Below are positions 37,902 to 40,949 of a stretch of 64,000 bases of DNA, piece after piece (the stretch's first letter is position 1; each line of letters begins with the position of its first letter). A program made the translations under genes and the position numbers. Below the pieces are notes generated by a model, which saw nothing but the letters and a program-made list of their open reading frames with translations, ran no database searches and had not been told where the DNA came from. The stretch spans positions 1 through 64,000 of the forward strand of contig CAWDPO010000036.1 in the NCBI GenBank assembly GCA_963804165.1, in the 5' to 3' direction. This stretch comes from an uncultured delta proteobacterium (GTDB lineage: Bacteria > Desulfobacterota > Binatia > UBA9968).

Positions 37902-38111
37902 TTAGCGGGCGGGGCCGGTTGACTCGTACTCTTCGAGCGCGCCGGGAGCCGGGCAGAAAGGCAAACAGTCGCCGCAGCCGGTGCATTCCTGCTCCAGCAC
38001 TTCGTACATGTGATGGATGTCCTGCATCTTCGGGTGGACAGCGTGCTCGGGGCAGACTTCGCGGCAGAGGCCGCAGGCGATGCAGAGGCTTTCGACGATT
38101 CTGACTTTCAT
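37902..38111 (-). CDS. 2x[4Fe-4S] ferredoxin
   Basis: CIACGLCREVCP and CTGCGDCLPFCP. Confidence 0.9.
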   Translation of the reverse strand: MKVRIVESLCIACGLCREVCPEHAVHPKMQDIHHMYEVLEQECTGCGDCLPFCPAPGALEEYESTGPAR

Positions 38112-38329
38112 GGTTGGTTGAGTGGAGAGTTCATGCCTCGATAAGGTTAGCACGAACGGAAAAAATCATTCGCAAAATAATCCGTTCACGCCGAGCTTGT
38201 CGAAGCGTTCTTCCTATTTCGATCCGCCTCTGCCTGAGCAGTTGATCGGCTAGTGACTTGCCGTGAATTTCCGCAGTTTGAATCATCAATCGTTTAATTC
38301 TGTGATTTCACTCCGAGACTGTGTCGCAA

Positions 38330-38404
38330 TGTCATCCTGAGGCGACAGCCGAAGGATCTCGCTTTCGCAAGTCGCTGCAAAGACGAGATGCTTCGCATTG
38401 CTCA
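38330..38404. repeat. Left part of a REP-like element interrupted by the IS110 element
   Basis: TGTCATCCTGAGGCGACAGCCGAAGGATCTC...GAGATGCTTCGCATTGC-TCA; continues as TCA-GCATGACA at 39718-39728. Confidence 0.85.
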
Positions 38405-38609
38405 TCTATGAAAGCTTTGTCAAGGTGGCTGATATTCACATATCGATATTCCGTCAAAGGTTTTGAACAAACTTACTCATATCGTCCGTAGTCCTGCGCA
38501 CCCGATGTTATCGGACTCATCTATTCGCCGTCTAAAGCGGCAGAGGAAAATGCCACAGGGCTGTCGCAATCAGCATTCGAGCCTTGTTTGGCTCATGAGC
38601 GAAACGCGC
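38405..38609 (-). ncRNA. Putative bridge/seek RNA in the downstream non-coding end of the IS
   Basis: Segments matching target and donor junctions flank hairpins (see findings); transcript ends unknown. Confidence 0.7.
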
Positions 38610-39650
38610 TTAGCCCCGCGTGGACGACATCGGTTCCCGATAGGACTCTCCCTTCTTAAGCATCCAGAAAGCCGCCTCGGCCAAGTGTCGGGCGACCGCC
38701 ACAATCGCTTTGCCATGACCGCGCCTGGCTTTGACGTTTTCATACAGCCGGCTGATATGTCGGTACTGGCAGCGCTCGCGGTTGAGCACCGCGCTGTTGG
38801 CCGCCTCGACGAAGGCCCACTTGAGATACAGGTTCACATCTTTGCGCACCCGCCCGTAGCGGATCTTGCCGCCACTGGAGTTCTCTCGCGGTACCAGTCC
38901 CGCATAGCTCGCCAACTGTTCGGCTCGGCCAAAGCGTTCGATGGTGCCGATCTCAGTCCAAATCACCACCGCCAGCATTTCACCGACCCCCGGCTCACTC
39001 TTCAAGTAGGTCGTCTGGGGGCAGGGAGCAAACGCTGCTTGCATCTTTGCTTCGATGACCTTGAGATTGGCTTGTACATGATCGAGTTCGTCAAGCATCA
39101 ACTTCAGCGCTTCGCCGGTATGAGGGGGCAGTTTAGCCAGCAGTCCTTCGAGGATCTGTCGTCCCTGCTTGCCAAAGGCGTCGCTGATTCCGTCCACCTT
39201 AAAGCCGTACTTACTTATAGTGGCGTGAATCCGATTCTTGAGTTGGGTGCGTTGATTGCTCAACACCATGCGGGTGCGCGGCAACTCCCGAGCGTCGCGC
39301 ACCGCGGACGGGGGAATCCAGACCGTCGGCAGGGTTCCTGCCCTCTGCAAACGGTTCATTCCTTTGGCATCCAACTTATCGCTCTTGTTGACGCTGCCGA
39401 TCATCAGCTTGGCCAAGCGTGCATTGACCAGTTGCGGACTCCCTTTTCCAGCTTCGATCTCATCGACTACCCAGTACCAGTTCCCAACCGTCTCCACCGC
39501 CACGGGAGTTCCGGGATTCCACTTCTTGGTAAAGTTCTCGATGGTTCCACCAACGTGCGCGAGTTTGCACTCATAGAGCTTATCGCCCTTGTCGTTTTCC
39601 ACTCGCGCCCAGCTGTAGTGCTTGTGAACATCCAATGCAATGTATTCCAT
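38610..39650 (-). CDS. IS110 family DEDD recombinase/transposase
   Basis: IALDVHK, VAVET and KSDKLDA (DEDD RuvC-like); PGVG and GLVPRENSSGGK (catalytic Ser); KAIVAVARHL; GAAGGAGG RBS. Confidence 0.95.
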   Translation of the reverse strand: MEYIALDVHKHYSWARVENDKGDKLYECKLAHVGGTIENFTKKWNPGTPVAVETVGNWYWVVDEIEAGKGSPQLVNARLAKLMIGSVNKSDKLDAKGMNRLQRAGTLPTVWIPPSAVRDARELPRTRMVLSNQRTQLKNRIHATISKYGFKVDGISDAFGKQGRQILEGLLAKLPPHTGEALKLMLDELDHVQANLKVIEAKMQAAFAPCPQTTYLKSEPGVGEMLAVVIWTEIGTIERFGRAEQLASYAGLVPRENSSGGKIRYGRVRKDVNLYLKWAFVEAANSAVLNRERCQYRHISRLYENVKARRGHGKAIVAVARHLAEAAFWMLKKGESYREPMSSTRG

Positions 39651-39830
39651 TTGCGATTTCCTCCTTCACCCGCCAGTCTAGTCACTGACGCTGTGGATTC
39701 CATCGCTTTCATATTAATCAGCATGACACTAATGGTCGCTCGTTGGTTGCGGCACAGAAGGGGAGAAGGTCGGAGCAATCCGTACGATCAAATTCTCGCA
39801 CTGTGGCCAACCTTTGCCTTTCCTCGTCAC

Positions 39831-40949
39831 TCAGCTCGCCGCCAAAAGTCGCTCGTGGCCCTTCTTCGAAATCGGCGCGAGTTGGGATGTGACCAACGAC
39901 CAGTTTTCGCCGTTATCCTCGCTGCAGTATACCTCGCCGCCGGTGGTGCCGCCGAAAATGGAGCAGTTACCGTTCGATTCTTCAAGACAGAGCGCGCCGA
40001 ACTCATGTTTCAAACTCTCCGGCAATCCGCCGCCAAGCCGTTGCCAGTTTTTTCCGCCATCTTTGCTGCGGTAGATTTTCCCTTCCGCGCGCGCCGCCAG
40101 ACCGGCCTTTCGCCACGTCGTCGGGTTGTGCTCCGCGGCGGCGACGAACATGAGATCGGGATTTTTCGGATTCCACGTGAACCCGTCGGGATAAACGTCC
40201 GCCGCCCAATCCGGGCTCATCCAGCGTTCCCAACTGCCGCCACCGGTATTGGTGACGTACAGTCCTGCGCCGCCCGTGACATAGATTCTTTGCGGATCGC
40301 GAGGATCGATCAAACAGCGGTGCACATCGTAGAAATGTTCGACGGGACGATTTTTATCCGTGAGCAACCCAACCGTATTCAACTCCGTCCAACTCTCTCC
40401 CTCATCGGTGCTTTTCAAAAACGCACCTTGCTCGATGCAAGCATAGATGGTTTTCGAATCTTTGGGATCGAAGGTGATGAATTTCGTGTGTGCCACGTGC
40501 GGCGCCGCTGGAAAAGTCCATTGGGAAACCGTCGGCACGGAGCGGAGCGACGGGATTTCATTCCAATGCAGCCCCAAGTCTTCACTGACGAATAAGTGGG
40601 CCGGCTGGGTGCCGGCGTACACGCGGACTTTGCCGTTGACGACGTTGGACGCCAAGCTGTAAACGTCGTGGATCGGGATGCCGTTGTCGCGGCGTTCCCA
40701 AGTTTTGCCGCCGTCGGTGCTCGCGTGAACAGAGCCGAAAAATGCGCCGGCGAACATGGTGCCGCTCGTGCGCTCGAAGATGATTGCGCTGATATGCTGG
40801 CCGCGCAGCGCGCGCTGGGCTTCACGCCACCTGCCGTTAGTTTCACGCTCGAAGAGCGCCAACCCGTCTTGGGTTCCGACCCAGAGTTGCTGCGACCGTT
40901 CGCTTGACGAGTAAACGTTTGTGCCGCCATGAGAAAGTCCGACCGCCAT
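39831..40949 (-). CDS. BNR/Asp-box beta-propeller protein
   Basis: STDGGKTW, SEDLGLHW, STDEGESW, SKDGGKNW and SEDNGENW repeats. Confidence 0.8.
   Translation of the reverse strand: MAVGLSHGGTNVYSSSERSQQLWVGTQDGLALFERETNGRWREAQRALRGQHISAIIFERTSGTMFAGAFFGSVHASTDGGKTWERRDNGIPIHDVYSLASNVVNGKVRVYAGTQPAHLFVSEDLGLHWNEIPSLRSVPTVSQWTFPAAPHVAHTKFITFDPKDSKTIYACIEQGAFLKSTDEGESWTELNTVGLLTDKNRPVEHFYDVHRCLIDPRDPQRIYVTGGAGLYVTNTGGGSWERWMSPDWAADVYPDGFTWNPKNPDLMFVAAAEHNPTTWRKAGLAARAEGKIYRSKDGGKNWQRLGGGLPESLKHEFGALCLEESNGNCSIFGGTTGGEVYCSEDNGENWSLVTSQLAPISKKGHERLLAAS

What the first reader, a model, noticed from the sequence alone, without database searches (positions are those of the whole stretch)
38405..38609. 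Readable bridge/seek-RNA in the IS110 downstream end, with guides matching a REP target and the element's own junction
Seen, read on the minus strand just after the recombinase stop: UUCGCUCA (38603-38596), U, hairpin GAGCC-AAACAA-GGCUC, GA, then AUGCUGA (38576-38570). AUGCUGA equals the left flank plus core of the reconstructed empty target (tgtcATGC-TGA-gcaat). UUCGCUCA is complementary to core plus right flank (TGAGC perfect, 6 of 8 overall). A second module with the same layout follows: U, hairpin GCCG-CUUUAGA-CGGC, GA, then AUAGAUGA (38524-38517), which equals the element end plus core (ttcATAGA-TGA), i.e. a donor guide. Known: IS110/IS1111 DEDD recombinases use a non-coding RNA with target- and donor-binding loops, located downstream of the gene in IS1111-type elements. 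Inference: this is an intact RNA-guided recombinase with a TGA/TCA core, programmed against a multicopy palindrome, and probably reprogrammable. I cannot tell whether this element is already catalogued, and I could not identify the right donor guide by eye.
Basis: partly seen in the sequence, partly recalled or inferred. Interest (0 to 1): 0.92.

Follow-up and report, generated by a model that had tools for sequence, protein, structure and literature searches.

The report
IS1111-type insertion sequence with guide RNA
This is a 1.3-kb jumping gene of a well-known family that carries, just after its recombinase gene, a small RNA spelling out the repeat it inserts into and its own ends; it is a clear but expected example.

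Summary
Window 38405-39720 (minus strand) is a 1316-bp IS1111-type member of the IS110 family. It has a 346-aa DEDD/Ser recombinase gene, 8-bp subterminal inverted repeats and a 205-nt downstream non-coding end.

That end encodes a structured RNA with strong covariation support in 35 homologues. It starts inside the last codons of the gene. It holds a target loop (RTG, hairpin, LTG) and a second module (RDG candidate, hairpin, LDG).

Across homologues, with ends called independently of the guides:
- LTG equals the left flank at 146 of 160 positions (permuted mean 47.8).
- RTG complements the right flank at 189 of 273 (102.7).
- LDG equals the right end at 144 of 160 (114.2).
- The RDG candidate is weaker, 163 of 273 (127.4).

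The same genome holds 4 copies of this element and 6 of an 83%-identical sibling. The sibling's guides differ exactly as its repeat-arm target differs.

Corrections: the core is TG, not TGA. A right donor guide candidate lies at 38552-38543.

This architecture is published (seekRNA, bridge RNA), so it is a new member of a known kind. No RNA or transposition data exist.

The parts
38405..39720 (-). Whole insertion sequence, 1316 bp counted with one copy of the TG core (TG at 39720-39719; the second TG is at 38404-38403)
   Evidence: Boundaries come from comparing 4 near-identical copies and 6 sibling copies in the same genome. Similarity stops at these bases.
39705..39718 (-). Left end: ATTAAT 39718-39713, then subterminal inverted repeat ATGAAAGC 39712-39705. 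TAATAT 39716-39711 would be the -10 of a circle-junction promoter.
   Evidence: Sequence reading. The inverted repeat with 38415-38408 is seen in homologues. Junction spacing of 17 nt was computed.
38610..39650 (-). Recombinase gene, 346 aa, IS110-family DEDD/Ser enzyme (D7, E53, D91, D94; G251-L-V-P-x4-S259-G260)
   Evidence: Pfam PF01548 and PF02371. NCBIfam NF033542, 232.5 bits against a cut-off of 140. IS621 8wt6 E 2e-11 with the SG motif aligned. Residue positions.
38554..38620 (-). Target module of the RNA. P1 is 38620-38612 with 38562-38554. P2 is CGCG 38608-38605 with UGCG 38568-38565. These enclose the internal loop and hairpin 1.
   Evidence: RNAalifold and pair counts on 35 sequences. 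MFE of the 71-nt stretch gives the same helices.
38596..38604 (-). Right target guide (RTG) UUUCGCUCA, complementary to the top strand of core plus right flank; U 38595 is a linker
   Evidence: In this copy it pairs with TG plus AGC contiguously, and with 4 of the 7 bases beyond the core.
38579..38594 (-). Hairpin 1, GAGCC-AAACAA-GGCUC
   Evidence: 5 pairs, all with compensatory changes among homologues. The sibling element has GGGUC/GACCC.
38570..38576 (-). Left target guide (LTG): AUGC 38576-38573 plus core UG 38572-38571, then A 38570
   Evidence: Identical to the left flank ATGC-TG in 4 of 4 copies. The sibling has AUUC with flank ATTC in 6 of 6 copies. Family-wide result.
38543..38552 (-). 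Candidate right donor guide (RDG) CAUUUUCCUC, 5' of hairpin 2
   Evidence: Pairs with 7 of 10 bases of the left end GATTAATATG (my reading). Family-wide: 163 of 273 against 127.4 permuted. Weaker in the independent subset (64 of 112 against 57.9; 266 of 20000).
38527..38541 (-). Hairpin 2, GCCG-CUUUAGA-CGGC
   Evidence: 4 pairs, 3 with compensatory changes
38516..38524 (-). Left donor guide (LDG): AUAGA 38524-38520 plus core UG 38519-38518, then AG 38517-38516, which match the target's right flank
   Evidence: Equals the right end CATAGA-TG. LDG tracks the right end in relatives (144 of 160 against 114.2). The +1/+2 bases track the target, not the donor.
38502..38514 (-). Hairpin 3, CCGAU-AAC-AUCGG
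   Evidence: Weakest helix: 75.2% of cells paired in the MAFFT alignment. Present in the centroid fold of the sibling.
38405..38423 (-). Right end: TTGACA 38423-38418 (-35 of the predicted junction promoter), subterminal inverted repeat GCTTTCAT 38415-38408, terminal AGA 38407-38405
   Evidence: Conserved in close relatives.
38330..38404 (-). Right part of the target repeat: TG, then AGCAATGCGAAGCATCTCG (38402-38384), a spacer, and the second arm CGAGATCC..CTCAGGATGACA (38361-38330)
   Evidence: Arm census. The uninterrupted form occurs elsewhere in the genome.
39721..39728 (-). Left part of the split repeat arm, TGTCATGC

Best explanation
Window 38405-39720 (minus strand) is an IS1111-type insertion sequence of the IS110 family. 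Its recombinase is most likely guided by an RNA made from the downstream non-coding end, probably co-transcribed with the gene and then processed. The RNA's first module (about 38620-38554) is a stem (P1, P2) closing an internal loop. [quoted passage not shown] This directs insertion at TGTCATGC-TG-AGC.., one arm of a palindromic repeat present in many copies. The second module has the same layout around hairpin 2. LDG (38524-38518) equals the right end plus core, and a partly complementary RDG (38552-38543) faces the left end, so the RNA would also hold the circularised element's junction. Recombination would happen at the shared TG. Shown here: the anatomy, the conserved RNA structure, and the match and covariation of guides with flanks and ends. 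Inferred from published relatives: that the RNA is made, binds the enzyme, and dictates target choice.
For: Protein family: Pfam PF02371 (75.9 bits) and PF01548 (41 bits); NCBIfam 'IS110 family RNA-guided transposase' 232.5 bits against cut-off 140; IS621 and ISCro4 structures are the only PDB matches, with the catalytic SG aligned.
Element anatomy: short left end, 205-nt right end, 8-bp subterminal inverted repeats.
Copies: 10 full-length copies in the genome. 4 are type A at 99.0-99.9% identity, 3 with an open 346-aa frame. 6 are type B at about 83% to A, 5 with an open frame.
RNA structure: 24 pairs; 92.8% of cells paired against 74.4% shuffled; 141 double-change cells against 38.5; 0 of 500 shuffles; slid controls at most 26.
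Distribution: a covariance model finds the RNA at exactly the 10 copies in the own genome and directly after the gene in 73 of 80 related loci.
Guide and flank tests: ends were called from the inverted repeats only, and elements were deduplicated by guide. LTG 146/160 against 47.8; RTG 189/273 against 102.7; LDG 144/160 against 114.2; RDG 163/273 against 127.4. No permutation of 20000 reached any of these. For elements not used to build the model: LTG 61/72 (0 permutations), RTG 59/91 (1), LDG 85/95 (0), RDG 64/112 (266 of 20000).
Natural retargeting within one genome: A has LTG AUGC with flank ATGC in 4 of 4 copies; B has AUUC with flank ATTC in 6 of 6. B's RTG matches TGAGCCGC in 2 of 5 right flanks and 5-7 of these 8 in the other 3.
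Core: CG in L027 and L040 in LTG, LDG and right junction together.
Independent boundaries: in a six-copy Acidobacteriota element, copy comparison gives GGGG-TG-[IS]-TG-ACGTGTC, with LTG GGGGUG, RTG AGACACGUC and LDG AUACAUG.
Empty site: the reconstructed 33-nt site occurs uninterrupted at 5 other loci with at most 4 mismatches, best 2.
Order of guides: the top-strand match lies 5' of the bottom-strand match, as published for IS1111-type seekRNAs (PMC11187229, section 9).
Against: No RNA, RNA-protein or transposition data exist for this element.
The RTG of this copy matches its four occupied sites only moderately, at 4-5 of the 7 bases beyond the core. Five non-repeat sites matching the ideal right flank at 7 of 8 are unoccupied. 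So pairing beyond core+3 does not by itself explain site choice; repeat structure or selection against genic insertions must add to it.
The RDG candidate is only partly complementary, with a conserved mismatch at the fourth base of the left end, and is weak in the independent subset.
For ISEc11 the short 82-nt seekRNA without the second module sufficed for transposition (PMC11187229, section 10). That questions whether module 2 is needed.
The permutation tests keep column make-up but not phylogeny. For LDG and RDG, where ends and guides are both conserved within clades, part of the excess can be shared ancestry.
Three automatic right-end calls (L021, L049, L072) look wrong and were left in the counts.
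Confidence: 0.9

Rival explanations
1. Only the first module is a guide. The element uses a short seekRNA (about 70-80 nt, P1 to P1) for the target, recognises its own ends through protein contacts with the subterminal inverted repeats, and the second module is precursor, scaffold or processing signal rather than a donor-binding loop.
For: The short 82-nt ISEc11 seekRNA supported transposition better than the long form, and the authors state the role of the long RNA is open (PMC11187229, sections 10 and 14). RDG complementarity is partial, and in the independent subset is barely above permutation (64/112 against 57.9; 266 of 20000). The 137-nt fold is not notably stable (z -1.24).
Against: LDG equals the right end plus core and changes with it among relatives (TAGA, GATA, GAGA, TACA, GAGG; core CG in L027 and L040): 144/160 against 114.2, and 85/95 against 68.1 in the independent subset. 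Module 2 repeats the layout of module 1. Durrant et al. predicted donor-binding bases in IS1111 bridge RNAs (PMC11208160, section 12).
Confidence: 0.2
2. The element and its RNA are relics. The matches are real but the copies are no longer mobile, and the RNA is not made in the linear, integrated state.
For: No sigma-70-like promoter was found in the linear element (0 sites). One A copy (contig 20) and one B copy (contig 30) have broken frames, and a truncated fragment lies on contig 22. One A copy (contig 17) has an extra base inside LDG.
Against: 3 of 4 A copies and 5 of 6 B copies keep the full 346-aa frame and are 99.7-100% identical to one another at different loci, which indicates recent movement. 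Joining the ends would create TTGACA-17 nt-TAATAT, the kind of junction promoter described for this family (PMC12288879 introduction).
Confidence: 0.08
3. Chance resemblance: short AT/GC words in a non-coding tail happen to match the flanks, with no RNA function.
For: Each individual match is short (6-9 nt), and the whole 208-nt tail does not fold better than shuffles.
Against: Structure covariation, guide and flank covariation over 32-40 distinct elements with 0 of 20000 permutations reaching the observed values, and the A/B pair in one genome.
Confidence: 0.02

Closest known systems
IS1111-type seekRNA elements (ISEc11, ISPa11, ISKpn4, ISPst6; Siddiquee et al. 2024, PMC11187229)
   Same: Recombinase of about 340 aa with the GL-P----SG motif. 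Long non-coding region downstream of the gene. Subterminal inverted repeats. An RNA whose top-strand-complementary segment lies 5' of the bottom-strand-complementary segment, with the two matches overlapping at the insertion point. Natural retargeting between relatives (ISEc11 and ISXne4 there; types A and B here). ISPa11 also targets a repetitive extragenic palindrome.
   Different: Different host lineage: the relatives found here are in uncultured Binatia, Nitrospirota, Chloroflexota, Acidobacteriota and similar genomes. Different target repeat and guide sequences. I could not align it to the published seekRNAs, because no sequences of them were available to the tools and supplements are closed. 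No experimental data here.
IS621 / ISCro4 bridge RNA systems (Durrant et al. 2024, PMC11208160; Hiraizumi et al. 2024, PMC11208158)
   Same: Same enzyme family (PDB 8wt6 E 2e-11, 9t56 E 2e-10). Four-guide logic (LTG and LDG identical to the top strand left of the core; RTG and RDG complementary to the top strand right of it). Dinucleotide core included in every guide. Repeat target.
   Different: The RNA lies downstream, not upstream, of the gene. The order of guide strands within each loop is reversed. The core is TG rather than CT. There are 8-bp subterminal inverted repeats. The bases that track the non-cognate DNA sit next to LDG (and perhaps LTG), not next to RTG and RDG as the IS621 handshake guides do. 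The N-terminal domain is too diverged for a significant pairwise match.
ISPpu9 / ISPpu10 of Pseudomonas putida (PMC12288879; preprint 10.64898/2026.03.19.712850, listing only)
   Same: IS110-family elements inserted at one position of a repetitive extragenic palindrome, several copies per genome, preferring paired repeats.
   Different: These belong to the IS110 group (no subterminal inverted repeats, RNA upstream). The downstream Ssr9 RNA of ISPpu9 is a separate, dispensable module. Here a covariance model found no orphan copy of the RNA (10 hits, all at the 10 elements).

Membership tests
IS110 family, IS1111 group insertion sequence | DEDD RuvC-like N-terminal domain plus C-terminal Tnp domain with the conserved G(L)-P----S/T-G serine | tested here: met
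   PF01548 at 41 bits against cut-off 29 and PF02371 at 75.9 bits against 21.3. NF033542 at 232.5 bits against 140. G251-L-V-P-R-E-N-S-S259-G260 aligned to the SG of IS621. D91 and D94 are aligned to the IS621 NKTDTVDA motif only in a weak stretch. D7 and E53 are assigned by motif position, which is inference.
IS110 family, IS1111 group insertion sequence | Longer non-coding region downstream of the gene; short left end | tested here: met
   The left end is 68 nt from the core to the ATG (39718-39651). The right end is 205 nt (38609-38405).
IS110 family, IS1111 group insertion sequence | Subterminal inverted repeats of 7-17 bp | tested here: met
   ATGAAAGC 39712-39705 and GCTTTCAT 38415-38408, set back 6 and 3 nt from the core. 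The same repeats occur in relatives.
IS110 family, IS1111 group insertion sequence | Site- and orientation-specific insertion without a target duplication other than the shared core | tested here: met
   10 of 10 full copies lie at GTCAT(G/T)C-TG-A.. in the same orientation relative to the repeat arm. Only TG(A) is shared by both junctions.
IS110 family, IS1111 group insertion sequence | Circular intermediate with a junction promoter | not testable with these tools
   Only the sequence prediction is available: TTGACA, 17 nt, TAATAT on joining the ends.
seekRNA / bridge RNA | Conserved secondary structure of the non-coding end | tested here: met
   24 pairs, 18 with compensatory changes, 0 of 500 shuffles. 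The covariance model hits 73 of 80 related loci.
seekRNA / bridge RNA | [quoted passage not shown] | tested here: met
   RTG 38604-38596 lies 5' of LTG 38576-38571. The order is as stated in PMC11187229 section 9.
seekRNA / bridge RNA | Guide segments covary with insertion flanks among relatives | tested here: met
   LTG 146/160 against 47.8 and RTG 189/273 against 102.7, 0 of 20000 permutations. Independent subset: 61/72 and 59/91.
seekRNA / bridge RNA | Donor-binding segments matching both element ends | tested here: inconclusive
   LDG is clearly met (144/160 against 114.2). The RDG candidate is partial (163/273 against 127.4; independent subset 64/112 against 57.9, 266 of 20000).
seekRNA / bridge RNA | RNA is made, binds the recombinase and is required and programmable for transposition | not testable with these tools
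   No experimental data. See Tried and rejected for the run search.
seekRNA / bridge RNA | Match to a curated RNA family model | tested here: not met
   Rfam 15 gives only two chance matches in 38000-40000 (E 0.94 and 2.9). Rfam appears to hold no model of this RNA. The published covariance models were not available.

The most novel reading that the evidence does not exclude
In this widespread IS1111-type clade the long RNA is a true two-handed bridge RNA, and it works as a mirror image of IS621. The second module reads both element ends (LDG firmly, RDG with a conserved mismatch). The one or two bases after the LDG core track the target's right flank, not the donor's: 54 of 88 against 32.8 permuted, while LDG+2 matches the donor in only 1 of 36. 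That would be a 'handshake' placed on the bottom-strand-pairing guides, and it would suggest that strand exchange starts on the other strand than in IS621. Two sibling elements in one genome would then be a natural pair of orthogonally programmed recombinases dividing up the arms of one repeat family.
Probability: 0.3. Interest if true: 0.55.

Novelty: new member of a known kind. Interest (0 to 1): 0.33.

Why it matters
It adds a cleanly delimited, multi-copy, apparently recently active IS1111-type element from an uncultured lineage. Its RNA can be read base by base, and it has a ready-made natural control: a sibling with different guides and correspondingly different repeat-arm targets in the same cell.

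The comparative set assembled here comprises 73 related loci with the RNA and 32-40 distinct guide sets with called ends. It gives sequence-level support for a donor-reading module in IS1111-type RNAs. The role of that module is stated as open in the experimental paper on seekRNAs.

For genome engineering it offers more compact recombinase and RNA pairs, including TG- and CG-core variants. It does not change the current picture of how these elements work.

Tried and rejected

Rfam has no family for this RNA.

Search for public RNA runs holding the element: no RNA holder was listed. This is no evidence either way.

Sigma-70 promoter and terminator scan of the linear element found 0 sites of each. 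I therefore assume co-transcription with the gene, as the published work proposes.

Orthologous empty site: the upstream gene is found in 25 of 31 related genomes searched, but the intergenic spacer is not conserved. In the 4 loci I read (L094, L095, L097, L098) one holds other repeat arms without an IS and three hold none. No exact empty site was obtained. I used paralogous uninterrupted repeat arms instead.

Plasmid collection: no match to the element. An exact-protein look-up gave only the name 'transposase', for 3 of 10 cluster members. ISfinder could not be consulted, so whether the element has an IS name is unknown.

tRNA idea: the left flanks of L021, L026, L028 and L031 looked to me, from memory, like tRNA T-arm sequence. 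ARAGORN found no tRNA in these loci, nor after in-silico removal of the element in five loci. The idea is dropped.

IS621-type handshake guide next to RTG: the linker U before hairpin 1 is complementary to the last base (A) of the right end in 38 of 44 elements. Both are nearly invariant, so nothing can be concluded.

Supplements of the two 2024 papers (their lists of elements, targets and covariance models) are closed. They may already list relatives of this element.

Full report
WHAT IS THERE. On the minus strand, window 39720-38405 is a 1316-bp element. It runs as follows:
- core TG (39720-39719) and a left end of 68 nt with ATGAAAGC at 39712-39705;
- a 346-aa open frame (39650-38610);
- a 205-nt right end that finishes with TTGACA (38423-38418), GCTTTCAT (38415-38408) and AGA (38407-38405);
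- a second TG (38404-38403).

The protein matches Pfam PF02371 (75.9 bits) and PF01548 (41 bits). It matches NCBIfam NF033542 'IS110 family RNA-guided transposase' at 232.5 bits against a cut-off of 140. Its only solved relatives are the IS621 and ISCro4 recombinases (E 2e-11 and 2e-10), with the catalytic Ser-Gly aligned at S259-G260. A long downstream non-coding end plus 8-bp subterminal inverted repeats are the features that separate the IS1111 group from the IS110 group (PMC11187229 section 6; PMC11208160 section 12).

THE OBSERVATION.

COPIES AND TARGET. The genome (7.5 Mb, 46 contigs) holds 10 full-length copies and one truncated fragment.
- Four are 'type A', including the window's. They are 99.0-99.9% identical, and 3 have an open 346-aa frame.
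- Six are 'type B', about 83% identical to A. Five have an open frame, and four of the six are 1316-1317 of 1317 identical to one another.

All ten sit at GTCAT(G/T)C-TG-A.. in one arm of an imperfect palindrome. Arms of the form TGTCAT[G/T/C]CTGAG occur 15, 65 and 49 times in the genome. The 33-nt site rebuilt from the window's two flanks occurs uninterrupted at 5 other places with at most 4 mismatches, best 2. So the flanks are target, not element. An exact orthologous empty site could not be found, because the spacer is not conserved in congeners.

THE RNA STRUCTURE. I aligned the region from 35 elements: the window, type B, and 33 of the 80 related loci fetched. RNAalifold and explicit pair counting give six helices with 24 pairs. 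92.8% of cells are paired against 74.4% in shuffles. There are 141 cells with changes on both sides against 38.5. None of 500 shuffles reaches this, and sliding the partners by 1-3 columns gives at most 26.

Helix P1 pairs 38620-38612 with 38562-38554, so the RNA starts in the last codons of the gene. P2 (CGCG 38608-38605 with UGCG 38568-38565) is invariant. Alone, this 71-nt module folds at -33.9 kcal/mol (z -3.81, 0 of 200 shuffles). The 137-nt form is unremarkable (z -1.24, 25 of 200).

A covariance model built from the alignment hits exactly the 10 copies in the own genome, with no orphan. It also hits directly downstream of the gene in 73 of the 80 related loci. By the table, five of the seven without a hit are cut within the gene.

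DO THE LOOPS READ THE DNA? I called element ends in relatives from the inverted repeats only: ATGAAAG-like and CTTTCA-like words with fixed spacing, never from the guides. Of 73 loci with the RNA, 54 gave a left end and 57 a right end. The own genome added 10 left ends and 9 right ends. After keeping one element per distinct guide string, the counts were as follows:

Guide tested | n | Observed | Permuted mean | Permutations reaching observed (of 20000)
LTG, 4 bases 5' of the core, identical to left flank | 40 | 146/160 | 47.8 | 0
RTG, 7 bases, complementary to right flank | 39 | 189/273 | 102.7 | 0
LDG, 5 bases, identical to right end | 32 | 144/160 | 114.2 | 0
RDG candidate, 7 bases, complementary to left end | 39 | 163/273 | 127.4 | 0

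For elements not used to build the model the figures are 61/72 (0 permutations), 59/91 (1), 85/95 (0) and 64/112 (266 of 20000). Three automatic right-end calls (L021, L049, L072) look wrong and were kept. An earlier, smaller run gave the same picture. These permutations do not correct for relatedness. That matters little for LTG and RTG, where the test is literal identity to many different targets. It matters more for LDG and RDG.

Individual cases make the same point:
- L042 (82% protein identity) sits in GCCTC-TG-AGCAGGC and carries CCCUCUG and GCCUGCUCA.
- L013 and L014 sit in AACC-TG-GATGCCG and carry AACCUG and CGGCAUCCA.
- L022 (TG) and L027 (CG) share a target family and differ in the core in LTG, LDG and right junction together. 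L040 likewise has CG.
- A six-copy Acidobacteriota element has boundaries from copy comparison alone: GGGG-TG-[IS]-TG-ACGTGTC. It carries GGGGUG, AGACACGUC and, for its end CATACA-TG, AUACAUG.

THE A/B PAIR. Within one genome, type A has LTG AUGC and left flank ATGC (4 of 4 copies). Type B has AUUC and ATTC (6 of 6). Their RTGs differ (..UUUCGCUCA against ..GCGCGGCUCA), and hairpin 1 differs by two compensatory pairs. P1, P2 and the whole second module are nearly identical, as are the element ends. B's RTG pairs with 6 of the 7 bases beyond the core in two of its five readable right flanks. A's pairs with only 4-5 of 7. This is the same kind of natural retargeting described for ISEc11 and ISXne4 (PMC11187229 section 10).

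1. The core is TG. The base after TG at the right junction is not A in 21 of 57 called junctions of relatives, while the left end keeps TGA.
2. The RNA starts upstream of 38612.
3. The missing right donor guide is most likely CAUUUUCCUC (38552-38543), immediately 5' of hairpin 2 and mirroring the RTG's position. It pairs with 7 of 10 bases of GATTAATATG. In more distant relatives the same position reads ..CAUCA or ..AUUCA opposite left ends TGATG.. or TGAAT... A mismatch at the fourth base is conserved.

WHAT PAIRING DOES NOT EXPLAIN. Among 3772 ATGCTG sites in the genome, the occupied type-A sites score 5-6 of 8 against the ideal right flank. Five non-repeat sites scoring 7 of 8 are empty. 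Either repeat structure adds to recognition, or insertions elsewhere are lost by selection. I cannot tell which.

A HANDSHAKE-LIKE SIGNAL. The two bases after the LDG core match the first two bases of the target's right flank in 54 of 88 positions, against 32.8 permuted (0 of 20000). The second of them matches the donor's own continuation in 1 of 36 (first seen). In IS621 the bases that read the non-cognate DNA lie next to RTG and RDG (PMC11208158, section 11). Here they lie next to LDG. This is the basis of the novel reading. It is statistical only.

EXPRESSION. No sigma-70-like promoter is found in the linear element. Joining the ends would give TTGACA, 17 nt, TAATAT. That fits the junction promoter described for the family (PMC12288879 introduction; PMC11187229 discussion).

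COMPARISON AND VERDICT. The architecture, its location, the order of the guide strands and the repeat target are all as published for IS1111-type elements. Durrant et al. predicted a bridge RNA in 93.0% of catalogued IS1111s. This is therefore a new member of a known kind, well supported by sequence and without experimental evidence. I could not check ISfinder or the papers' supplements for a name. Papers seen: PMC11187229 (outline and sections 6, 9, 10, 13, 14); PMC11208160, PMC11208158, PMC13604230, PMC12288879 and PMC13626964 (passages only); others in search listings only.

Noticed in passing
window 38330-38404 and 39719-39728; genome-wide: The target is a palindromic repeat whose arms come in three variants, TGTCAT[G/T/C]CTGAG, with 15, 65 and 49 copies. 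Rfam's chrB-a model touches the second arm weakly (E 0.94), probably by chance. Very similar arms (TGTCAT[T/C]CTGAG..GAAG[A/G]ATCT) flank related elements in Nitrospirota genomes (L015-L017, L075, L089), so this repeat type spans phyla.
   Followed up: partly
L027 and L040 (related loci): Two relatives use a CG core instead of TG. LTG, LDG and the right junction all read CG. L027 otherwise shares the target family of L022, which has TG.
   Followed up: partly
G000 contig 20: 85263-86609 and 89964-91290: A type-A and a type-B copy lie about 3.4 kb apart on one contig. The A copy has several single-base insertions and a frame broken at 129 aa, which could be assembly error rather than decay.
   Followed up: no
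G000 contig 17: about 396001-396143: This type-A copy has an extra C inside the LDG (AAUAGCAUGAG) and a one-base change in the loop of hairpin 2. Its recombinase frame is intact.
   Followed up: no
G000 contig 22: 28901-29700: A truncated, internally deleted type-B-like fragment lies in a repeat arm reading GTCATTTTGA.
   Followed up: no
L063: 2530-2672 (+) and 3085-3248 (-): Two hits of the RNA model face each other about 400 nt apart, which suggests two elements tail to tail.
   Followed up: no
L021, L026, L028, L031: The left flanks resemble a tRNA T-arm (resemblance recalled from memory). ARAGORN finds no tRNA there, nor after in-silico removal of the element.
   Followed up: yes
window 38131-38289 and 39831-40949: The element lies in the spacer between two genes that stay neighbours in congeneric genomes. 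The spacer itself is not conserved, and in one congener (G006) it holds other repeat arms.
   Followed up: partly
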